64,000 nucleotides of DNA. Source: Escherichia coli. Its GTDB lineage: Bacteria > Pseudomonadota > Gammaproteobacteria > Enterobacterales > Enterobacteriaceae. Location of the stretch: NCBI RefSeq assembly GCF_001677475.2, contig NZ_CP015229.1, one strand, 5' to 3'. Of this stretch, positions 1-35,535 are shown piece after piece (the stretch's first letter is position 1; each line of letters begins with the position of its first letter). Under the pieces are notes generated by a model. It searched no databases, was not told the origin of the DNA, and was given only the letters and a program-made list of their open reading frames with translations. A program made the translations under genes and the position numbers.

Positions 1-1832
1 AGAACCGCCGCAGCCACAAACGCGGCAACAATCAATCCGACCGGACTGAACAGCGCCCCGATAGCGCCACCCAGCAACGAGATGGAACCTGTTACCATTC
101 CCCATAGTGCTGGCAGCACCCTGACGACATTCATTGATCCGGTCAGGAGAGAAAAACCAAGACGTAACGTGGCCAGTTTCCCGTGAAGCACGCCAATAAC
201 CAGCGACAACGAGCCAATCGTTGCAGTCATTGCCAGCAACGCACCGCCTGCTATCAGTAGCTGGCGCGTCAGTGCCGGATGGGCCTGCGCCAGCGCCGTC
301 ACCCTTGATACCACCCGCGTGAGCCACTGCGTGACAGAACGCAGCGGGCCGTCAATCAGATCTGCAATGCGGATGCGCAACCCTTCCCATGCACTGCCGA
401 GTGATTTCAGATCGCCATCAAGGTTGTTGGCCATAACCTTTGCCGTGCGTTCAGCCTCACCGCGTGCGCCTTCAAGTTCTTTTCTCAGTTTGGGTAAGGA
501 ACCGTCACCTGCCGCATCAACGAGGGCCATAAACGATGTGAAAGCCTCTTCCCCGGCGATGTCCTTAAAGAAGGATACCCGGTCAACTTCCCCGTATTTG
601 CGGGTGGCTTTATAAAGGTCGGCCAGCACATCCTCCATCGGGCGCATTTTGCCGTTCGCGTCAGAAACTGCCACACCAAGCTCTTTCAGCGCCTCTGCTG
701 CTGCCTTTGGCGGTGATGCCAGACGAGCCAGGCTGGCACGCATTGCCGTCCCGGCATCACTCCCTCTGATACCCATATTCGCCAGCACGCCCGCCATCGC
801 TGCGGCCTGCTCCAGCGATATTCCCAGCTTACCCGCCACCGGACCTGCATATTTCATGGTTTCGCCCAGTGCGCGAAGGTCAGTGTTGGTACGGGTAAAC
901 GCTGCGGTGAGTGTGTCACCAACCCGGTCCATCTGGTCAGCAGAAAGGCCGAACTGCGTCAGGATATTTGAGCCAATATCCGCCGTCTCGCCGAGATCCA
1001 TACCGCCAGCCGTTGCCATGCTCAACACGCCGGGAAGCGCAGCCTGAATGGCCTGCGGTGTGAAGCCAGCCATTGCAAGAAATGCCTGTCCACTGGCGGC
1101 ATCGCCTGCGGTGAACTGCGTTTCAGAGCCAAGTTTTAACGCCTGCTCACGCAGCGCCTTAAACTGTGGGCTGTTCTGGTCGATTCGCGTCAGTGCCTGA
1201 ACGCGGGACATCTCTTTCCCGAACCCGATCGCAGGCTGCAAAAAACGCCCGGCAGCATAGCCGCCAGCCGCTGCCGCACCAATTGCCAGCGCACCACCTG
1301 TTTTCAGTTTTCCAGCAGTTTCCTGCGCGCGCGAATACCGCTCACGCGCCCGCGTTACACGCGCAAGCGTCTGCCGTTCGCGTTCAAGCTGGTTGTTGTA
1401 CTGTTCGGTGCGTCTGATGGCCTGCTGGATGGTGTTATCGCTGCCTGTCAGGGAAATGCCGTGGCGTTTCAGCTCTCCGCCAAGCTCCCGCATTTTCTGA
1501 ATTTCCCGTGTGCGCGATTCATTCAGGCGTTCAAGCCGGGTGCTTAACTGCTGCATCAGCTTTTGTTGTTTTTCGCTGAGCACTGTACCCGTGCGTTGTA
1601 ACTGATTAAGGGCGTTAAGCTGGCGTCGTGCTTTCACGATGCCCGCATCCGCTTTACTGACAGCGTCACGGGCGCGCTCAAACGAACGCGCCTGACGCTC
1701 GAGATTTTTGATCGCCCCCTGCGTTCGCTGGATGGAGTCACCAAACTGCCCCATCAGGCGGCGGGCGTTTTCGGCAGGCCGGGTCAGCCTGTCAACGGCG
1801 CTGAAAGCGACCCGGATATCAAGAGTCTTCAT
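1..1832 (-). CDS. Phage tail tape measure protein (P2 gpT-like), 3' end truncated by window edge
   Basis: Open minus-strand frame from ATG at 1832 (alternative ATG 1841) to position 1; translation MQTMKTLDIRVAFSAVDRLTRPAENARRLMGQFGDS... is coiled-coil rich and sits directly downstream of E/E' as in P2. Confidence 0.7.
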   Translation of the reverse strand, partial: MKTLDIRVAFSAVDRLTRPAENARRLMGQFGDSIQRTQGAIKNLERQARSFERARDAVSKADAGIVKARRQLNALNQLQRTGTVLSEKQQKLMQQLSTRLERLNESRTREIQKMRELGGELKRHGISLTGSDNTIQQAIRRTEQYNNQLERERQTLARVTRARERYSRAQETAGKLKTGGALAIGAAAAGGYAAGRFLQPAIGFGKEMSRVQALTRIDQNSPQFKALREQALKLGSETQFTAGDAASGQAFLAMAGFTPQAIQAALPGVLSMATAGGMDLGETADIGSNILTQFGLSADQMDRVGDTLTAAFTRTNTDLRALGETMKYAGPVAGKLGISLEQAAAMAGVLANMGIRGSDAGTAMRASLARLASPPKAAAEALKELGVAVSDANGKMRPMEDVLADLYKATRKYGEVDRVSFFKDIAGEEAFTSFMALVDAAGDGSLPKLRKELEGARGEAERTAKVMANNLDGDLKSLGSAWEGLRIRIADLIDGPLRSVTQWLTRVVSRVTALAQAHPALTRQLLIAGGALLAMTATIGSLSLVIGVLHGKLATLRLGFSLLTGSMNVVRVLPALWGMVTGSISLLGGAIGALFSPVGLIVAAFVAAAV

Positions 1833-2357
1833 TGTCTGCATTCCCGCTGCGAAGTGCCGCCCGCTCACGCCAGCTAACCACTTCGCCGGGCGTCATCATG
1901 AAGATTTCGGCGGGCGACCAGTTAAAAATGGCGGCGATATCTGCCACCAGATCTTCGATGTGCTCAAAGCACACCAGGGTAATTACGCTGCCGTCTCCTG
2001 CACGCTCTTCGCGCCAGAGTCTGGCTCGCTCATAAAATTTACAGCCACAGCGCACAACTGAATAAAATCGCGTGACGACATTTTTTTAATCATCACTTCA
2101 TCCAGTCGTGGCGAGGTCACGCGAGGCAACAGCGTAAACATGGTATCCGCTTTCAGATTCAGCACATCAGACAGCGACAGACCACGCAGGGATCCAGCCT
2201 GCTCAATAGCCCCGGTGATCTCCACATACGTGATTTTTTCGCCACCACGCTCAATTGGTCGGGTCAGTTTTACGCCACGTTCGACAGCCATATCCTCACC
2301 TGCCGTCACATCATCCGCCACGGTGTTATTCCGGGTTTCAGTATCGATGTCTTTCAT
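1819..2357 (-). CDS. Predicted E+E' fusion made by -1 programmed ribosomal frameshift
   Basis: The E' ORF is in the -1 frame relative to E; a candidate slippery heptamer AAATTTT lies at 2034..2040 (minus-strand sense) inside the overlap. Confidence 0.45.
1983..2357 (-). CDS. Phage tail assembly chaperone (P2 gpE-like)
   Basis: 124-aa ORF between the tube gene and the tape measure gene; an overlapping -1 frame ORF (1819..2055) fits the E' extension. Confidence 0.65.
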   Translation of the reverse strand: MKDIDTETRNNTVADDVTAGEDMAVERGVKLTRPIERGGEKITYVEITGAIEQAGSLRGLSLSDVLNLKADTMFTLLPRVTSPRLDEVMIKKMSSRDFIQLCAVAVNFMSEPDSGAKSVQETAA

Positions 2358-2412
2358 CAGTTGTCTCCTTTTCAGTCAGAGGCGACGCACTGCGCCGCCT
2401 GCATATTACTTA

Positions 2413-2925
2413 TCAGCCAAGCCCAAGCGCGGAACGGATACGGTCAGGCACAATGTCCTTGCCGTCCTTCCGGTAGATGTGGTTCAACAGGTCGATTTCC
2501 CACAGCGGGCGATCGTTAACGCTCAGCTTGTAGTAGGTGTTTTTGACAGCGTAAGTGTGTGATGTGGCTTCGCCCTGTTTGGCTTCCCCCATATCAATTT
2601 CCGTCACACGCCCACGCATCTCGATTTCATACAGATCGCTTTCTGCATCGGTGTAGTATTCACCCGCAAAACGCAGCAGCGTGCCGTCAATCGTGCCGCC
2701 ATATTTAAGGAACAGCGCACGAACAGCTCCCCCCATGACAAAACTCGCATCAAGCGCGGAGTCGTCCAGACCGAGATCAATACTTACCGCCCCCATCATG
2801 CCACCACCACGATAGCTGTCGGTTTTGCGCGTCAGTTTGGGCGGCGTGACGGATGTCACTTTACCCACTTCGTTTTCACCATCCACAAACAACGTAAAAA
2901 AGCGAAGATGTTTTGGTACAGCCAT
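2413..2925 (-). CDS. Phage tail tube protein (P2 FII-like)
   Basis: 170-aa ORF; motifs TPPKLTRK, YRGGGMMG, DLGLDD, MRGR, EIDMGE, KQGE resemble P2 FII; its ATG overlaps the FI stop (ATGA). Confidence 0.85.
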   Translation of the reverse strand: MAVPKHLRFFTLFVDGENEVGKVTSVTPPKLTRKTDSYRGGGMMGAVSIDLGLDDSALDASFVMGGAVRALFLKYGGTIDGTLLRFAGEYYTDAESDLYEIEMRGRVTEIDMGEAKQGEATSHTYAVKNTYYKLSVNDRPLWEIDLLNHIYRKDGKDIVPDRIRSALGLG

Positions 2926-4109
2926 CAGGCACCTCCCAGCACCGCAAATGCGGGACCAAAGAATTCATCAGTAAACGTCTGGTAAAGCTCCATGTCTTCC
3001 AGCGGGGGAACAGGCGTATATTTGTAGCGAATACGCACACGTCCCTGACGTAAATTCGTGGTGCCGTTATCCACCACGTCATACCAGCACTCCGCGCCAA
3101 TCAGTTTCCCGGCAGTAACCAGCGAATCCAGTTTTGCCCTGATGGCACTGATAACATCCTTCACGTTCGCAGGCGTCAGTGGACTGTCGATGGTTTCAAA
3201 CTGCGCTTCCGCAATTGAATCAGCCAGCACCTGTGCGGTTCGGGTATACACCTCAAAGATGTAGGCGTTCGTTTCCGGTGTGCGGTTGCCCCAGAAGCGG
3301 AACCCGTTGCGACGAATAATGGTCGTGATTTCTTTGTTGTTGAGGCTGTTGGCATCGCTGTCTTCGGCCTGCAACGACCAGAACACATGCCTCGACATCC
3401 CCAGCACATTTTTAACCGGAACGTTGGACAGTGATTTGTGCCATCCCTGCTCATGGTCAATGTACGCACGAAGGCCGCACGCATAGGCAGGCGCGGGGAA
3501 CGTTTCGTTTTTGCCACTTTTCGGGTTGTAGGCGATGAAGTCTGGCCATAAGAGCATCACCTCACGTTCGTTGAATTTCTGGCGGTAGGTAATTGCCTCG
3601 GCCATCGTGTTACAGCCATGACATGAGGCATACACAAACGCGCGCAGTTTACCCGCAATCACGCACAGGGATTTTGTCACCGCCTCCGTGTCCAGCTCCG
3701 GCGCGGCCAGAATACGCGGACGGTATCCGATGCTTTCATCCTGCTCTGCAACAAGCAGCGCATACATCCCCGTATAGCTGCCGTCAGATTCAGAACCACC
3801 GATAACCAGTTGATCCTGCGTTTTTCCGTCTTCTTCTTTGTGTTCAGCCACGCGAACGACGATCACCTTTGTGCTCACCTGGTCTGCGATGGCCTTAAGC
3901 GCACGATAAAGCGTCCCCGTTGTTCCGCATTTTCCCAGCACGTCATTGACGCGGGTCAGCAGTGTGGGCTTGTTCAGCGGGAACAGCTCCGCGTCCGCAT
4001 CATCTGCCGTTGCCACGATACCGATAACACTGGAATCAACATCATTAATCGCTGTTACCAGGTCGGTACTTTCCGTAACACGGGCACCATGAAAACGAGT
4101 TTCACTCAT
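2925..4109 (-). CDS. Phage contractile tail sheath protein (P2 FI-like)
   Basis: 394-aa ORF; motifs DADAELFPLNKP, AYRQKF, WPDF, DHEQGWHKSLSNV, IRRNGFRFWGNRT, YTRTAQV, YKYTPVPPLE match the P2 FI sheath as I recall it. Confidence 0.9.
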   Translation of the reverse strand: MSETRFHGARVTESTDLVTAINDVDSSVIGIVATADDADAELFPLNKPTLLTRVNDVLGKCGTTGTLYRALKAIADQVSTKVIVVRVAEHKEEDGKTQDQLVIGGSESDGSYTGMYALLVAEQDESIGYRPRILAAPELDTEAVTKSLCVIAGKLRAFVYASCHGCNTMAEAITYRQKFNEREVMLLWPDFIAYNPKSGKNETFPAPAYACGLRAYIDHEQGWHKSLSNVPVKNVLGMSRHVFWSLQAEDSDANSLNNKEITTIIRRNGFRFWGNRTPETNAYIFEVYTRTAQVLADSIAEAQFETIDSPLTPANVKDVISAIRAKLDSLVTAGKLIGAECWYDVVDNGTTNLRQGRVRIRYKYTPVPPLEDMELYQTFTDEFFGPAFAVLGGA

Positions 4110-4266
4110 AGCTTCAGCCCCTTGTATCCGTTAAATGATTCGGCAACAATCATCACCCACCACGCGCGTAATCTCACCCCTGCGCCGTTCTCCCGCCACG
4201 GCGACAACAAAAAGCAGTAATCCCCTCCGCACGCACATGCGACCATGCCGCACAGGGAGGGAACAG

Positions 4267-5376
4267 ATGACCGACACCACCATGCAATTGCTCAGTCAGG
4301 GCACAGACCCCGTGAAAATGCCGGATTTTGATATTCTCGCGGAGGGTAAAACGCTGTCAGGCGTGGCAGAGCGCCTGATGAGCCTGTCACTGACCGACAA
4401 CCGGGGATTTGAGGCGGACCAGCTCACCATCACGCTGGATGATGCGGATGGTCAGTTGCAGCTACCGCCACGGGGCGTGCGCCTGACGGTTCTCATTGGC
4501 TGGAAAGGAGAACCGCTGACAGAAAAAGGCACTTACATTGTTGATGAAATCGCTCACGAAGGACCGCCGGACAGGCTGACTGTTTCAGCCAGAAGCGCAG
4601 ATTTTCGGGATGAATTTAACGTTAAACGTGAGGTGTCCTGGCATGATGTGACCGTTGAGCGTGTGGTATCCGCCATCGCTCATCGGTACGGTCTGAAACC
4701 GCAAATCAGCGAAATGCTGATGGATATCGAAATCGACCACGCCGACCAGACCGAAGAAAGCGACATGTCCTTCCTTACGCGCATGGCGGAAATGCTGGGC
4801 GCAATCACCACGGTAAAAAGCGGCAATCTGTTATTCATCATGCCAGGTGGTGGCGTGAACGCACAGGGCCAGCCGTTGCCATCGTTCGCCATCACACGCA
4901 GCAGCGGCGATCGCCATCAGTTCCGCATTGCTGACCGCGAGGCGTATACGGGGGTGCGCGCCTACTGGCTTGATCTTAACTATGGGAAAAAGAAAAAAGT
5001 CAGCGTGAAACGCCGCAAACCACCCAAACCGAAAAAGGAGAAAAGCAGCAGCCGCGAAGGTGACTATATGGAAGGTGCGGAAGGCAACGTGTTTGTGTTA
5101 CGCAAGACTTATCAGAACGAGCAGGCAGCAAGACGCGCAGCGGCGGCAAAGTGGCAGCAGCTACAACGCGGAGCCGCATCATTTTCCATCACGCTGGCAC
5201 GTGGACGCGCAGAACTCTACCCCGAAATGCATGGCACAGTAACAGGATTTAAAAGCGAGATTGATAATCAGGACTGGATTATTGCAAAAGCCGAGCACAC
5301 CATTGATAACAGCGGCTTTACCACGCAGCTTGAGCTTGAGGCAAAAATCCCGGAATGGATAGCAGAAACAGAGTGA
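4267..5376 (+). CDS. Phage late control / tail protein D (P2 gpD family)
   Basis: ORF track 4135..5376; probable start at ATG 4267 preceded by GGGAGG; motif SLSLTDNRGFEADQLTITLDDADGQL is typical of the Phage_GPD family. Confidence 0.75.
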   Translation: MTDTTMQLLSQGTDPVKMPDFDILAEGKTLSGVAERLMSLSLTDNRGFEADQLTITLDDADGQLQLPPRGVRLTVLIGWKGEPLTEKGTYIVDEIAHEGPPDRLTVSARSADFRDEFNVKREVSWHDVTVERVVSAIAHRYGLKPQISEMLMDIEIDHADQTEESDMSFLTRMAEMLGAITTVKSGNLLFIMPGGGVNAQGQPLPSFAITRSSGDRHQFRIADREAYTGVRAYWLDLNYGKKKKVSVKRRKPPKPKKEKSSSREGDYMEGAEGNVFVLRKTYQNEQAARRAAAAKWQQLQRGAASFSITLARGRAELYPEMHGTVTGFKSEIDNQDWIIAKAEHTIDNSGFTTQLELEAKIPEWIAETE

Positions 5377-5502
5377 ACAACCTCGACGTTTTATTTAATA
5401 TACAAAAGCCTTCTGGACACGGTAAGGCAAGAACAAGGATAGAAGATCCTTTACAGTCAGAGTTACAGGTTATACCTGTAAGCAAAAACAAAGGCATATA
5501 TT

Positions 5503-6261
5503 ATGTTCAGTTTGTTTTCGTTAACTGCCGGAGCAAATGTGCGCTGGCATGATTTACCTGGTCAGGGTATTCCTGTTGTTTTTATTCATGGACTTGGCTG
5601 TTCCTCTTCTTATGAATATCCACGGGTTGTTGCAGATCCTGTATTTGGTGGACAACGAGCGATATTGATAGATCTCCCTGGATATGGATTCAGTGATAAG
5701 CCTAAAGGATTCGATTACAGCATATCCCATCAAGCTAAGGTTGTTATTGAAGTAGTAGAAACCTTAAATCTCTCACAGTTCCATATTTATGGTCACAGTA
5801 TGGGGGGAAGTATTGCGATTGAAGTAGCCAGACAACTACATGAGAGAACAAGAAAGCTTGTGGTTTCTGAGCCTAATTTTCACTCTGGTGGAGGTACCTA
5901 TAGCCGTAAGATAATAGAGAAGCCAGAAGCAGAGTTTATTTCGCATATATATAATGAATTACTGGAGTGTGAAACATCCCCATGGAAAGGTGAACTCCAG
6001 AATGCAGCCCCATGGGCAATATGGCGAGGAGCCAAAAGTCTGGTTGATGGAACCACTCCATCATGGCGAGATATATTCCTTAATCTGTCCTGTTCACGAA
6101 CACTAATTTTTGGCGAACAATCATTGCCAGATAATGATTTCCAGTATATAAAAGAATCAGGAATATCTGTTGCAATAGTGCCAAACGCCGGACACTCCAT
6201 GTCATGGGAAAACCCATCAGCACTGGCCGAAATTTTACACACAGAATTTTATAAAGAGTAA
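5503..6261 (+). CDS. Alpha/beta-fold hydrolase (probable esterase/lipase-type serine hydrolase); AT-rich cargo gene
   Basis: 252-aa ORF; N-terminal VVFIHGLG, nucleophile elbow GHSMGG, C-terminal NAGHSMSW candidate His; codon usage visibly more AT-rich than the flanking phage genes. Confidence 0.6.
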   Translation: MFSLFSLTAGANVRWHDLPGQGIPVVFIHGLGCSSSYEYPRVVADPVFGGQRAILIDLPGYGFSDKPKGFDYSISHQAKVVIEVVETLNLSQFHIYGHSMGGSIAIEVARQLHERTRKLVVSEPNFHSGGGTYSRKIIEKPEAEFISHIYNELLECETSPWKGELQNAAPWAIWRGAKSLVDGTTPSWRDIFLNLSCSRTLIFGEQSLPDNDFQYIKESGISVAIVPNAGHSMSWENPSALAEILHTEFYKE

Positions 6262-6621
6262 AATTGCTCATATATAAATGTTGTTCCATCAGTATCATAT
6301 TATCAAAGGGCAGGAGGTAAATTTATCTTCTGCCATTTCACTCAAATCAGGCGATTTGATAGCACGCATTTTATGAGATGCTTGAAACTTATAAATATAT
6401 AAGAACGTCTTGTTATCAAAATATATAAGCACAGAAAGCAAACACTTTCCCATAATTACTTTGTTAATTTTTTGCCTGATAATAAATGGCATAATAAACA
6501 GTATCAGAGAGTATTTTTATTAATAATTAAACACACATTCCTCAATCTGACATGACTGTTAGTTGGCATATTTACAAATACAATTTAAAATAACGACAGC
6601 AAAACGTTAAGGGAGGTCGCT

Positions 6622-6882
6622 ATGTTCCGTTGTCCGCTTTGTGGCGCATCTGCCCGTATCCGCACCAGTCGTCCAGAAAATGATTCAAACACCGTACGGC
6701 AAAAGTATTACCAATGTAACAACCTGGAATGCGGCGTATGCTTCTCAACACTGGAAGCTTTCCATAAATTCACATCGAAACACGCCTCCGGCGCTCACTC
6801 TTCAGAAAGTATCCCGTGGCATGAACTGCCAGCTTCCCACAGAGGAAACAATCAGATGAGTTTGCCCTTACCTCAAAATTAA
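6622..6882 (+). CDS. Ogr/Delta-family zinc-finger late transcription activator
   Basis: 86-aa ORF MFRCPLCGASARIRTSRP...YYQCNNLECGVCFSTLE; the C-x2-C...C-x4-C pattern and MF-CPLC-RTSR motif match P2 Ogr; RBS AGGGAGG upstream. Confidence 0.75.
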   Translation: MFRCPLCGASARIRTSRPENDSNTVRQKYYQCNNLECGVCFSTLEAFHKFTSKHASGAHSSESIPWHELPASHRGNNQMSLPLPQN

Positions 6883-6942
6883 CAGGCAGAATTGCCGGAG
6901 TAACAAAAAAGCGATAGATTACGCGCGGGTGCCTTTCGGCTG

Positions 6943-7206
6943 ATGGTCGGAGGGAATACCCGAAGGCCAGATGTGGAAAGGCCCCGGAAAACATCTCTGT
7001 TTAACCGAGGCCCTAACCGCATTACCTTGACAAGTGAAAGGTTAGCGCCTCTCCGGAAAAGGAGCAAGTGCTATGTCGCAAAAATCGCTTACAGCCATCA
7101 CGTTCTGCGTGACGGCAATCCTCATCATCTGGATGCTACACGGTTCGCTGTGCGAAATACGGATGAGCTTCTGGGGAGCGGAGTTTGCGGCGTTCTTACA
7201 GTGTAA
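6943..7206 (+). CDS. mok-like overlapping reading frame (translational coupler for hok)
   Basis: 87-aa ORF in a different frame that overlaps almost all of the hok-like ORF, as in hok/mok/sok loci. Confidence 0.35.
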   Translation: MVGGNTRRPDVERPRKTSLFNRGPNRITLTSERLAPLRKRSKCYVAKIAYSHHVLRDGNPHHLDATRFAVRNTDELLGSGVCGVLTV

Positions 7207-7213
7207 GCAGTAA
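7073..7213 (+). CDS. Hok/Gef-family type I toxin (46 aa, single transmembrane helix)
   Basis: Hand translation ATG 7073 to TAA 7211: MSQKSLTAITFCVTAILIIWMLHGSLCEIRMSFWGAEFAAFLQCKQ; hydrophobic N-terminal helix followed by SLCEIR and AAFL motifs; RBS GGAG upstream; too short for the ORF track. Confidence 0.6.
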   Translation: MSQKSLTAITFCVTAILIIWMLHGSLCEIRMSFWGAEFAAFLQCKQ

Positions 7214-7302
7214 GGAAACCGCGACGGGGGAGCAATCCCCCGTCAATCGGTTGCCAGGGTAAGGTCGATAAGGCACCCTATCTCACAGACATGAACAACA
7301 AA

Positions 7303-7335: not shown

Positions 7336-7482
7336 GTGTCCTCACCGACTTGAAACAGTGATCAGACTATAAGACAAAGCCCACAATGTAGCTGGCTTAC
7401 TCCCCTCCCCCCCCACACTAAATGTGGACACATCGTGGAATGAAGAGATATAAAACATTATAAATCAATTGGTTATTGAAAG

Positions 7483-7508
7483 AAAAAAGGCCGCAGAGCG
7501 GCCTTTTT
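7483..7508 (-). terminator. ihfA intrinsic terminator (hairpin flanked by A/T runs on both sides)
   Basis: aaaaaaggccgcagagcggccttttt immediately downstream of the ihfA stop. Confidence 0.55.
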
Positions 7509-7520
7509 AGTTAGATCAGA

Positions 7521-7820
7521 TTACTCGTCTTTGGGCGAAGCGTTTTCGACCCGGCTTTTTAACTTCTGCCCGGGTCTGAAGGTCACCACGCGCCGTGCTG
7601 TAATGGGAATATCCTCGCCCGTTTTCGGGTTACGTCCCGGGCGTTGATTCTTATCACGCAGATCGAAGTTACCAAAACCAGAGAGTTTCACCTGTTCGCC
7701 GTTTTCCAGAGCGCGACGGATCTCTTCGAAAAACAGTTCAACCAGTTCTTTGGCATCCCGCTTGCTAAGCCCAAGCTTATCAAACAGATATTCTGACATT
7801 TCAGCTTTTGTAAGCGCCAT
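7521..7820 (-). CDS. ihfA: Integration host factor alpha subunit
   Basis: 99-aa [91 protein letters not shown]... Confidence 0.95.
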
Positions 7821-7824
7821 AGGT

Positions 7825-10215
<2,391 letters not shown>

Positions 10216-10226
10216 CTATTCCTGCC

Positions 10227-11252
<1,026 letters not shown>

Positions 11253-11421
11253 TTAGAGCCTATCCCATCAGGCTATTTTACTTGCCATTTTGGTCCCGGG
11301 CAGTGCTCGAAATTCTCACGTACTTAAATACGCTCCGGTTTCTCCGCGCTGGCCGTGTCCAGACTGGCTGCGACAATTACACCTGATGAGACAGGCTTTT
11401 TATTTTTCAAAACGCGCATAC

Positions 11422-11448
11422 AAAAAAAGCCTCCACTGGGAGGCTTTC
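11422..11448 (-). terminator. pheST attenuator terminator
   Basis: Minus-strand hairpin agcctcccagtggaggct followed by a T-run, between pheM and pheS. Confidence 0.6.
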
Positions 11449-11493
11449 AGGCGCTGTTTTCCGTTTCTCTTCTCACGCGCTAGCCTCCTGGAG

Positions 11494-35413: not shown

Positions 35414-35535
35414 CCACAAAACTATGCAAATTCAATATATTGCATGAGTCGAATAGGCCTGACAGGCGTAGCACGTCAGACGGTGTAACCTTTGTCATCA
35501 ACCCGCCTCTTTTTTAATCGCTCCCCGCCTGTTAC

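What the first reader, a model, noticed from the sequence alone, without database searches (positions are those of the whole stretch)
2034..2040. Candidate -1 slippery heptamer for E/E' tail-chaperone frameshift
The E' ORF is in the -1 frame relative to E, and the overlap contains AAATTTT read as A AAT TTT in the E frame, which fits the X XXY YYZ rule. P2 itself is reported to use a T-rich slip site, so this would be a variant site conserving the chaperone frameshift that sets the tail-assembly ratio.
Basis: partly seen in the sequence, partly recalled or inferred. Interest (0 to 1): 0.35.

Follow-up and report, generated by a model that had tools for sequence, protein, structure and literature searches.

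The report
Variant slip site, P2-like tail chaperone
A P88-like (P2-family) prophage of E. coli makes its two tail-assembly chaperones, E and E+E', by the well-known -1 ribosomal frameshift, but this allele has lost the classic P2 slip sequence TTTTTTG and retains only the overlapping heptamer A AAT TTT one codon upstream; this is a minor, untested variant of an ordinary mechanism.

Summary
AAATTTT (2040..2034) is read A AAT TTT in the E frame (2357..1983). It is the only in-frame X XXY YYZ heptamer in E. The E' frame (Pfam Phage_P2_GpE) is -1 and open from 2085 to 1819.

The motif alone is weak evidence, since about 0.10 is expected by chance. The support comes from comparison:
- Its Phe codon aligns with the Phe of the P2-type T TTT TTG site.
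- All 80 related IMG/VR loci carry an in-frame heptamer at this position.
- Purifying selection switches from the E frame to the -1 frame exactly here.

P88-type relatives have A AAT TTT TTG, which holds both heptamers. In the window allele a T->A change (TTG->ATG) destroys the P2 heptamer. This allele occurs in 597 of 5,426 complete E. coli genomes. A Klebsiella lineage independently kept only C CCT TTC.

In published E. coli reporters, A_AAU_UUU shifts 11% with a strong stimulator, against 0.8% for U_UUU_UUG, but only 0.07% without one. No conserved stimulator was found. An allele-specific hairpin is possible.

Rejected rivals are the A7 run (2087..2081) and independent E' initiation.

This is a small new variant of a known system, and no experiment has tested it.

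The parts
1983..2357 (-). Gene E, the tail assembly chaperone (0 frame). 124 aa, ATG 2357..2355, stop TAA 1985..1983, SD GGAG 2368..2365.
   Evidence: ORF. PF10109 Phage_TAC_7 scores E=4.7e-4, below the gathering score. phrog_103 'tail protein' scores 1.4e-33. tblastn gives 35% identity to P2-type gpE (Wphi, L-413C). It lies between tail tube FII (2925..2413) and tape measure T (T inferred from relatives' annotation).
2034..2040 (-). Proposed slippery heptamer A AAT TTT (Asn107-Phe108 of E). The T at 2034 is read twice after a -1 slip.
   Evidence: Phasing. It is the only in-frame heptamer in E. Its Phe column is invariant in the alignment with P2-type E+E'. Selection switches frame here. A_AAU_UUU gives 11.4% frameshifting with the IS3 pseudoknot in E. 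coli (PMC4066793 Table S3).
2031..2033 (-). Codon ATG (Met109) following the heptamer. Relatives have TTG here. The A at 2033 is the derived change that destroys the P2-type heptamer T TTT TTG.
   Evidence: Alignments. The outgroups (phiT5282H, KSP20, Wphi, Klebsiella phages) all have TTG, TTA or TTC. 41-mer counts: the ATG allele is in 597 E. coli genomes and the TTG allele in 818. No cross-type alleles were found.
1819..2034 (-). E' extension read in the -1 frame after the slip (71 codons: YERARLWREERAGDGSVITLVCFEHIEDLVADIAAIFNWSPAEIFMMTPGEVVSWRERAALRSGNADNEDS, stop TGA 1821..1819). The predicted E+E' is 179 aa.
   Evidence: PF06528 Phage_P2_GpE scores 2.9e-12. phrog_1756 covers fusion residues 104-177, starting at the junction. 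-1-frame syn:nonsyn is 1629:1162 against 265:2279 in the 0 frame within the overlap.
1986..2030 (-). Possible allele-specific stimulatory hairpin: 45 nt starting 3 nt after the heptamer, paired region 2029..1987. Hypothesis only.
   Evidence: MFE is -18.9 kcal/mol, z=-1.89, and 11 of 200 dinucleotide shuffles fold as well. The related ATG allele L027 gives -20.7, z=-2.45. The P88-type TTG allele gives -8.1, z=+1.41. The segment was chosen post hoc. There is no covariation and no family-wide consensus structure.
2081..2087 (-). A7 run (ATT AAA AAA ATG) at the very start of the open -1 frame. Considered as an alternative slip site and rejected as the main one.
   Evidence: Coordinates. P88-type relatives have a -1-frame TGA between the A7 run and AAATTTT. 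The 14 codons in between evolve under 0-frame constraint: syn:nonsyn is 2008:702 in the 0 frame against 77:2906 in the -1 frame.
1972..1974 (-). GTG used by GenBank/PGAP annotations as the start of a separate 51-aa 'GpE family phage tail protein'. Probably an annotation artefact.
   Evidence: Annotations. No SD lies at a usable distance (the nearest GGAG is 20 nt upstream). 21 of 33 unique relatives have no ATG, GTG or TTG in this stretch, and none has ATG.
1..1832 (-). 5' part of tape-measure gene T. ATG 1832..1830 overlaps the end of E'. The gene runs off the window start.
   Evidence: Translation. Relatives annotate a 2,808-nt tape measure gene at this position.

Best explanation
The region is the E/E' tail-assembly-chaperone pair of a P88-like (Xuanwuvirus, Peduoviridae) prophage. 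Most ribosomes translate E (124 aa) to its stop at 1985..1983. A minority slip back one nucleotide on A AAT TTT (2040..2034). In the model I favour, tRNA-Asn sits in the P site (AAU re-pairs to AAA) and tRNA-Phe sits in the A site (UUU re-pairs to UUU, a cognate re-pairing). These ribosomes continue in the -1 frame through E', giving a 179-aa E+E' fusion with the junction ...AVNF|YERARLW.... By analogy with lambda gpG/gpGT and P2 gpE/E+E', the shared E part binds the tape measure protein T and the E' part recruits the tail tube protein. The slip frequency would then fix the E:E+E' ratio needed for tail assembly.

The site is the positional homologue of the P2 site T TTT TTG, moved one codon upstream. 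Close relatives carry both overlapping heptamers (A AAT TTT TTG). This allele has lost the P2 heptamer (TTG->ATG).

What is shown: the sequence anatomy, the homology, the positional conservation, and the switch of selective constraint at the site. What is inferred: that slippage occurs, its efficiency, which tRNAs slip, and the protein functions.
For: 1. Anatomy. E' is -1, open from 2085, and carries PF06528. E lies between FII and T.
2. Positional homology. The Phe codon of the site is an invariant column in the alignment with Wphi, whose E+E' is annotated as a -1 frameshift product.
3. Survey of 80 IMG/VR loci. Every locus has an in-frame heptamer at this position. 29 lack any T_TTT_TTN, and all 29 keep the upstream heptamer: 15 have A_AAT_TTT and 14 have C_CCT_TTC. 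These represent two independent lineages, each with sister lineages carrying the double site.
4. Constraint switch. Upstream of the site, variable columns fall 4/3/12 on 0-frame codon positions 1/2/3. In the overlap after the site they fall 4/11/4. Pairwise syn:nonsyn flips from favouring the 0 frame (2008:702 against 77:2906) to favouring the -1 frame (1629:1162 against 265:2279).
5. No conserved start codon for E'. phrog_1756 matches from the junction onward.
6. Motif competence. In Table S3 of PMC4066793, AAAUUUU gives 0.070/0.355/11.4% (no stimulator/IS911/IS3 pseudoknot), against 0.118/0.247/0.765% for UUUUUUG. H_HHU_UUY is among the 15 best E. coli motifs, and A_AAU_UUU is under-represented in E. 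coli genes (z=-9.1).
7. The allele is not a sporadic lesion. It is in 597 of 5,426 complete E. coli genomes, including ST131 EC958, and in deposited phage genomes (P88_4B11 at 99.5%).
Against: - No experiment bears on this sequence.
- Without a stimulator, A_AAU_UUU is barely above background in the reporter (0.07% against about 0.055%).
- No conserved downstream structure or upstream SD-like element was found. The allele-specific hairpin is marginal and was chosen post hoc.
- The heptamer alone is expected by chance about 10% of the time.
- The comparative support for the upstream heptamer rests on only two or three independent evolutionary events.
- The element common to all 80 loci is just T_TTY, a Phe codon preceded by T. 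A slip by tRNA-Phe alone would give the same protein.
- The pairwise syn/nonsyn counts are not phylogenetically independent.
Confidence: 0.8

Rival explanations
1. Same place, different mechanics. Only tRNA-Phe slips, on the tetramer T_TTT (2037..2034). This would happen either in the A site without P-site help, or in the P site while the A site waits on AUG. The flanking A AA would be irrelevant. The product is identical (...NF|YER...).
For: The only element shared by all 80 related loci is NNT TTY. U_UUC and U_UUU are the second and third best tetramers in E. coli (1.78% and 0.80% with a pseudoknot; PMC4066793). Many relatives (G CCT, C GGT, T GAT before TTT TTG) lack any upstream X XXT match.
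Against: Every locus that has lost T_TTT_TTN keeps a perfect upstream X_XXT (29 of 29 loci in two lineages). The third base of the preceding Val codon is A in 12 of 13 unique segments of this clade, while neighbouring synonymous positions vary. In the reporter data the heptamer A_AAU_UUU (11.4%) is about 14-fold better than the tetramer U_UUU (0.80%) (the constructs differ).
Confidence: 0.15
2. The shift occurs at the A7 run (2087..2081), by ribosomal slippage of tRNA-Lys or by transcriptional slippage. This would give E(1-92)+NVVTRFYSVVRCGCKF+E'.
For: In this allele the -1 frame opens exactly at the A7 run, just after a -1-frame TAA. The A7 run is conserved in the clade. tRNA-Lys is shifty, and AAAAAAA in the proper phasing gives 24.8% with a pseudoknot.
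Against: - The phasing is T AAA AAA, not A AAA AAA. The in-phase tetramer A_AAA is weak, 0.26% with a pseudoknot.
- P88-type relatives have a -1-frame TGA between the A7 run and AAATTTT.
- The intervening 14 codons are constrained in the 0 frame only (syn:nonsyn 2008:702 against 77:2906).
- The more distant relatives shown lack the run (INEM or IATL where this clade has IKKM).
- From general knowledge, appreciable transcriptional slippage needs runs of about 9 or more.
Confidence: 0.02
3. E' is translated independently as a 51-aa protein from the GTG at 1974, as GenBank/PGAP annotate it. There is no frameshift.
For: All fetched annotations of this clade list a separate 'GpE family phage tail protein' or 'tail protein' CDS. 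The GTG is present throughout the AAT clade.
Against: - No SD lies within reach of the GTG.
- The 22 -1-frame codons upstream of the GTG, back to the slip site, are under -1-frame purifying selection and are matched by phrog_1756.
- 21 of 33 unique relatives have no ATG, GTG or TTG there, and none has ATG.
- In P2 the homologous E' lacks a ribosome binding site (PMC3931495) and is made as an extension of E (PMC3091744).
Confidence: 0.02
4. The T->A change crippled frameshifting. The window allele belongs to tail-defective or decaying prophages, and the remaining heptamer is fortuitous.
For: The canonical T6G is destroyed. The motif-only efficiency of A_AAU_UUU is about background. The chance of a fortuitous heptamer is about 0.1.
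Against: - The allele is in 597 complete genomes, with E' intact in all 15 IMG/VR copies and the fetched E. coli copies.
- The upstream heptamer pre-exists in TTG-bearing relatives, so it is not fortuitous to this allele.
- A P88-like phage was plaque-purified from infant E. coli isolates (PMC6969025). That it is P88_4B11, the 99.5% match, is my inference.
- A second lineage (Klebsiella, C CCT TTC TTG) shows the same pattern.
Confidence: 0.03

Closest known systems
Bacteriophage P2 gpE / gpE+E' (FETUD operon). -1 programmed frameshift at T TTT TTG (Christie et al. 2002, as cited in PMC3091744 and PMC3931495).
   Same: The gene order FI-FII-E-E'-T is the same. E is homologous (35% identity by tblastn). 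The E' domain is PF06528. E' is -1, has no start or SD of its own, and overlaps the start of T. The Phe codon of the slip site sits in the same alignment column.
   Different: The T6G heptamer is absent (TTT ATG). The only heptamer is A AAT TTT, 3 nt upstream, so the P/A-site tRNAs would be Asn/Phe rather than Phe/Leu. E is longer (124 aa against 91) and E+E' is 179 aa against 142. About 11 extra -1-frame residues (WREERAGDGS...) follow the junction. The FI-to-U block is inverted relative to gene D in this genus.
Phage P88 and other Xuanwuvirus/Gemsvirus prophages (P88-type allele, A AAT TTT TTG).
   Same: 86-88% DNA identity across E/E', with the same genes and lengths. They share the A AAT TTT heptamer.
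   Different: They also keep the P2 heptamer T TTT TTG. They have a -1-frame TGA upstream, so the overlap is shorter. They lack the predicted 45-nt hairpin (-8.1 against -18.9 kcal/mol). In complete E. coli genomes the two alleles never appear with swapped site types.
Klebsiella Reipivirus prophages (ST16-OXA48phi5.4 type), C CCT TTC TTG.
   Same: This is an independent case in the same protein family where the T_TTT_TTN heptamer is broken and only the upstream X_XXT_TTY heptamer remains.
   Different: The upstream triplet is different (Pro codon CCT), and the break is different (TTT->TTC rather than TTG->ATG). C_CCU_UUC is the more efficient motif in reporters, at 23% with a pseudoknot.
Lambda gpG/gpGT tail chaperone frameshift (G GGA AAG), and the general dsDNA-phage tail chaperone frameshift (Xu, Hendrix and Duda 2004; reviewed in PMC5009743).
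   Same: The logic is the same: two products share an N-terminus, the genes lie between the major tail protein and the tape measure, and a low-frequency -1 slip near the 3' end sets a fixed ratio.
   Different: There is no sequence similarity. The heptamer and tRNAs differ. This is a contractile-tail phage rather than a siphovirus.

Membership tests
P2-type gpE / gpE+E' tail chaperone pair (Peduoviridae) | The two overlapping ORFs lie between the tail tube gene (FII) and the tape measure gene (T). | tested here: met
   FII (PF04985, 2.1e-45) is at 2925..2413. E is at 2357..1983 and E' runs to 1819. T starts at 1832. Relatives annotate the tape measure there.
P2-type gpE / gpE+E' tail chaperone pair (Peduoviridae) | The upstream ORF is homologous to gpE (Phage_TAC_7, PF10109). 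| tested here: met
   tblastn hits annotated gpE of Wphi, L-413C and other P2-like phages at 35% identity over 90% of the query, E=1e-7. phrog_103 scores 1.4e-33. The Pfam hit itself is below the gathering score (20.6 against 25 bits). NCBIfam gave no hit.
P2-type gpE / gpE+E' tail chaperone pair (Peduoviridae) | The downstream ORF carries the P2 GpE (E') domain, PF06528. | tested here: met
   46.3 bits against a cutoff of 23, E=2.9e-12, covering profile positions 1-36 of 37.
P2-type gpE / gpE+E' tail chaperone pair (Peduoviridae) | E' is in the -1 frame, overlaps the 3' end of E, and has no initiation signals of its own. | tested here: met
   No SD precedes the annotated GTG. No start codon is conserved among relatives.
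P2-type gpE / gpE+E' tail chaperone pair (Peduoviridae) | A T6G-type slippery sequence (T TTT TTG, with known variants T7G and T7C) lies in the overlap. | tested here: not met
   The window has A AAT TTT ATG, with only four T residues. P88-type relatives do have T TTT TTG at the same place. For this reason I file it as a variant rather than a plain member.
P2-type gpE / gpE+E' tail chaperone pair (Peduoviridae) | E+E' is actually produced by a -1 frameshift and is essential for tail assembly. | not testable with these tools
   This needs reporter fusions, mass spectrometry or genetics. There is only indirect support, from the constraint switch at the site.
Canonical bacterial -1 PRF signal (X_XXZ_ZZN heptamer plus stimulator, as in IS3/IS911/dnaX) | An in-phase X_XXZ_ZZN heptamer that allows re-pairing of the A-site and P-site tRNAs. 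| tested here: met
   A_AAU_UUU is in phase. It belongs to the H_HHU_UUY class, which is listed among the most efficient E. coli motifs (PMC4066793).
Canonical bacterial -1 PRF signal (X_XXZ_ZZN heptamer plus stimulator, as in IS3/IS911/dnaX) | A downstream hairpin or pseudoknot 5-9 nt from the motif, and/or an SD-like element 6-17 nt upstream. | tested here: inconclusive
   There is no consensus structure in 15 diverse relatives. The 74-nt folds are not better than shuffles (z from -0.99 to +0.94). No GGAG, GAGG or AGGA lies within 20 nt upstream. However, the 45 nt after the site in this allele fold to -18.9 kcal/mol (z=-1.89), against -8.1 in the TTG allele.

The most novel reading that the evidence does not exclude
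In the P88/Novemvirus/Reipivirus branch of the P2 family, the working slip site may not be the textbook T6G. It may instead be the overlapping upstream heptamer X_XXU_UUY, with tRNA-Phe slipping in the A site. That would explain why T6G could be lost twice independently. In the E. coli 'ATG' allele the loss would be accompanied by a downstream hairpin that acts as a compensating stimulator. The two co-circulating alleles, found together in about a quarter of complete E. coli genomes, would then be a natural example of slip-site migration with retuning of the E:E+E' ratio.
Probability: 0.3. Interest if true: 0.45.

Novelty: new variant of a known kind. Interest (0 to 1): 0.3.

Why it matters
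- **Annotation.** The E/E' pair of this very common E. coli prophage family, present in 1,373 of 5,426 complete genomes, is annotated everywhere as two separate genes. The 179-aa E+E' fusion is missing from protein databases, and tools that look for T6G will not find the site in the ATG allele.
- **Mechanism.** The site offers a natural, minimal pair of alleles (A AAT TTT TTG and A AAT TTT ATG) for testing which of two overlapping heptamers is used. It also allows a test of whether the bacterial rule that cognate A-site re-pairing matters most (Sharma et al. 2014) holds in a native phage context without a strong stimulator.

The biology, a tail chaperone ratio set by a -1 frameshift, is otherwise textbook.

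Tried and rejected
- **A7 run (2087..2081) as the slip site.** Rejected, because relatives have a stop codon in between and the constraint there is in the 0 frame.
- **Independent initiation of E' at the GTG at 1974.** Rejected.
- **Conserved downstream RNA structure.** RNAalifold on 15 diverse relatives predicted 0 pairs. 74-nt folds of 6 phages were no better than shuffles.
- **Upstream SD-like stimulator.** None was seen within 20 nt upstream in the window. Wphi has AAGGTGG 4 nt upstream of its T6G, but I did not pursue this.
- **Cross-type alleles in E. coli.** I searched for the window background with TTG and the P88 background with ATG, and neither gave a match. One IMG/VR contig (L028) does carry ATG in a P88-type background.
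- **NCBIfam search of the fusion.** No family was hit.
- **Literature.** Christie et al. 2002 could not be read, so the P2 facts are taken from papers that cite it. My recollection that P2 shifts at about 10% is from memory only. A search for 'P88_4B11' found nothing. A search for AAATTTT with frameshift and tail found nothing relevant. The gene-cluster search of Sharma et al. 2014 did not include A_AAU_UUU or U_UUU_UUG and lists no P2-type E cluster.
- **An error of mine.** In the first shuffle I used an out-of-frame codon split. I redid it correctly and the answer was the same (0.10).

Full report
**Observation.** The genes lie on the minus strand. Plus-strand 2034..2040 is AAAATTT, and the minus strand reads AAATTTT.
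- E is the 124-aa ORF at 2357..1983. It has a good SD (GGAG 2368..2365, 7 nt before the ATG) and stops at TAA 1985..1983.
- The -1 frame is open from 2085, just after a -1-frame TAA at 2088..2086, down to TGA at 1821..1819. It encodes a clear P2 GpE domain (PF06528, 46.3 bits).
- The tape measure gene T starts at ATG 1832 and overlaps the end of E'.
- AAATTTT is the only in-phase X XXY YYZ heptamer anywhere in E.

By itself this is weak evidence. In-frame heptamers occur at 53 per 18,187 codons in the window's long ORFs, which gives about 0.10 expected in the 34-codon overlap. Codon shuffling of the overlap gives the same figure.

**What the element is.** The first roughly 7.3 kb of the window is the end of a P88-like prophage (Xuanwuvirus, Peduoviridae). 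The E/E' region is 99.5% identical to phage P88_4B11, and window 37..5381 is 97.3% identical to it. Tail sheath FI (4109..2925) and tube FII (2925..2413) precede E. E is homologous to P2-type gpE at 35% identity and matches phrog_103. All fetched GenBank and PGAP records annotate E and a separate 51-aa 'GpE family' ORF starting at the GTG at 1974. None annotates a frameshift.

**Comparative evidence for the site.**
- *Positional homology.* I aligned predicted E+E' fusions from the window, P88, phiT5282H, a Klebsiella phage, KSP20 and Wphi. Wphi's E+E' is annotated as a -1 frameshift product. The Phe codon of the site is an invariant column in this alignment.
- *Codon context.* Wphi has GGT TTT TTG, KSP20 has CCT TTT TTG, phiT5282H has C CCT TTT TTG, the Klebsiella phage has C CCT TTC TTG, P88 and its close relatives have A AAT TTT TTG, and the window has A AAT TTT ATG.
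P88-type relatives have both heptamers. In the window a single derived T->A change at 2033 has removed the P2 heptamer.
- *Survey.* All 80 IMG/VR loci recovered have an in-frame heptamer at this position:

| Heptamer(s) at the site | Loci |
|---|---|
| A_AAT_TTT only | 15 |
| A_AAT_TTT plus T_TTT_TTG | 17 |
| C_CCT_TTT plus T_TTT_TTG | 8 |
| C_CCT_TTC only | 14 |
| T_TTT_TTG only | 21 |
| T_TTT_TTA | 3 |
| T_TTT_TTC | 2 |

- *Independent losses.* The 29 loci without a T_TTT_TTN heptamer all keep a perfect upstream heptamer. They fall in two separate lineages, and each has sister lineages with the double site.

**Where the frame switches.** I compared 33 unique sequences of the AAT clade.

| Segment | Variable columns at 0-frame codon positions 1/2/3 | Pairwise syn:nonsyn, 0 frame | Pairwise syn:nonsyn, -1 frame |
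|---|---|---|---|
| 42 nt before the site | 4/3/12 | 2008:702 | 77:2906 |
| Overlap after the site | 4/11/4 | 265:2279 | 1629:1162 |

Position 2 of the 0 frame is position 3 of the -1 frame. Purifying selection therefore moves from the E frame to the E' frame at the heptamer. The counts are not phylogenetically independent, but the direction is unambiguous. Two further points agree. phrog_1756 matches the fusion from residue 104, which is at the junction. And 21 of 33 unique relatives have no possible start codon between the E stop and the conserved DDLVADIA motif, with none having ATG.

**Rivals.**
- *A7 run (2087..2081).* It sits exactly where the -1 frame opens in this allele, but it is phased T AAA AAA. 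P88-type relatives have a -1-frame TGA between it and AAATTTT. The codons in between are constrained only in the 0 frame.
- *Independent initiation at the GTG at 1974.* There is no SD, and this model cannot explain the -1-frame constraint upstream of that codon.
- *A crippled allele.* This is unlikely. A 41-mer centred on the site finds the ATG allele in 597 of 5,426 complete E. coli genomes and the TTG allele in 818, and swapped combinations are absent. E' is intact in every copy examined. A P88-like phage was plaque-purified from infant E. coli isolates (PMC6969025). Its identity with P88_4B11 is my inference.
- *tRNA-Phe slipping alone on T_TTT.* This rival cannot be excluded from sequence, because it gives the same protein. 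The minimal element shared by all 80 loci is NNT TTY.

**Mechanism and efficiency.** Sharma et al. 2014 (PMC4066793, Table S3) measured all 64 heptamers in E. coli. Values are % frameshifting:

| Motif | No stimulator | IS911 stimulators | IS3 pseudoknot |
|---|---|---|---|
| AAAUUUU | 0.070 | 0.355 | 11.4 |
| UUUUUUG | 0.118 | 0.247 | 0.765 |
| CCCUUUC | 0.193 | 1.39 | 23.2 |
| CCCUUUU | 0.212 | 3.0 | 11.7 |

[quoted passage not shown] They list H_HHU_UUY among the best 15 motifs. The window's heptamer is therefore mechanistically competent, and potentially better than the P2 heptamer, but only with a stimulator.

I found no family-wide stimulator. RNAalifold predicted no pairs, the 74-nt folds are no better than shuffles, and there is no SD-like element upstream. 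This agrees with the reported absence of hairpins in P2.

There is one allele-specific hint. The 45 nt after the ATG (2030..1986) fold into a single dominant irregular hairpin of -18.9 kcal/mol (z=-1.89), and L027 gives -20.7 (z=-2.45). The P88-type TTG allele gives only -8.1 (z=+1.41). I chose this segment post hoc, it shows no covariation, and one ATG-bearing contig (L028) lacks it. I treat it as a hypothesis.

**Comparison and novelty.** This is the P2 E/E+E' system in every respect except the family's T6G slippery sequence, which was tested here and is not met. The site is a canonical heptamer overlapping the ancestral one. I file it as a small variant of a known kind. The frameshift itself, its efficiency and the protein roles are inferred by homology with P2 and lambda. 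The practical consequence is mainly for annotation, since the 179-aa E+E' fusion is missing from records of a prophage family found in about a quarter of complete E. coli genomes. It also provides a neat natural allele pair for testing which of two overlapping heptamers is used.

**Scores.** Interest is 0.3. Confidence that a -1 frameshift into E' occurs at this position is about 0.8. Confidence that it is specifically a tandem A AAT TTT slip is about 0.6.

Noticed in passing
window 1864..1897 (E' 3' region, minus strand): A 34-nt stretch matches at 100% inside an annotated CRISPR array of E. coli strain GmM066 (NZ_CM183652.1). That strain therefore carries a spacer against this prophage family's E' region.
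   Followed up: partly
window 5382..6580: A roughly 1.2-kb insertion relative to phage P88_4B11 lies between gene D (ends 5376) and the ogr-like regulator region (homology resumes at 6581..7286). It carries a 252-aa alpha/beta-hydrolase gene (5503..6261; PF00561, 1.9e-20). It looks like a cargo gene ('moron').
   Followed up: partly
window 1972..1974 and all related database records: E' is annotated everywhere (GenBank phage records and RefSeq/PGAP E. coli genomes) as a free-standing 51-aa 'GpE family phage tail protein' starting at this GTG. No ribosomal slippage is annotated, so the E+E' fusion protein is absent from annotations.
   Followed up: yes
window 2081..2087 (minus strand): An A7 run in E (ATT AAA AAA ATG) is conserved across the P88 clade and sits exactly where the -1 frame opens in this allele. 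It is not the main slip site, but low-level slippage giving a minor third product is not excluded.
   Followed up: yes
window 2925..4109 (-) against 4135..5376 (+); L094: The FI-FII-E-E'-T(-U) block is transcribed divergently from gene D (PF05954). In P2 these genes form one FETUD operon. P88_4B11 has the same layout, with a DNA invertase and duplicated tail-fibre genes beyond U, so this is normal for the genus.
   Followed up: partly
window 7427..11544: Host chromosome begins just after the prophage end (about 7290). It contains the STnc540 sRNA (7427..7579), large minus-strand ORFs of 795 and 331 aa (7825..10212 and 10227..11222, probably pheT and pheS) and the Phe leader (11420..11544). The ES036 sRNA lies at 35418..35460. 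No tRNA genes were found in the window.
   Followed up: no
L028 (IMGVR_UViG_2534681835_000034): This is one contig with a P88-type sequence background but ATG instead of TTG after AAT TTT. The T->A change has therefore arisen or been transferred at least twice. This combination is absent from 5,426 complete E. coli genomes.
   Followed up: partly
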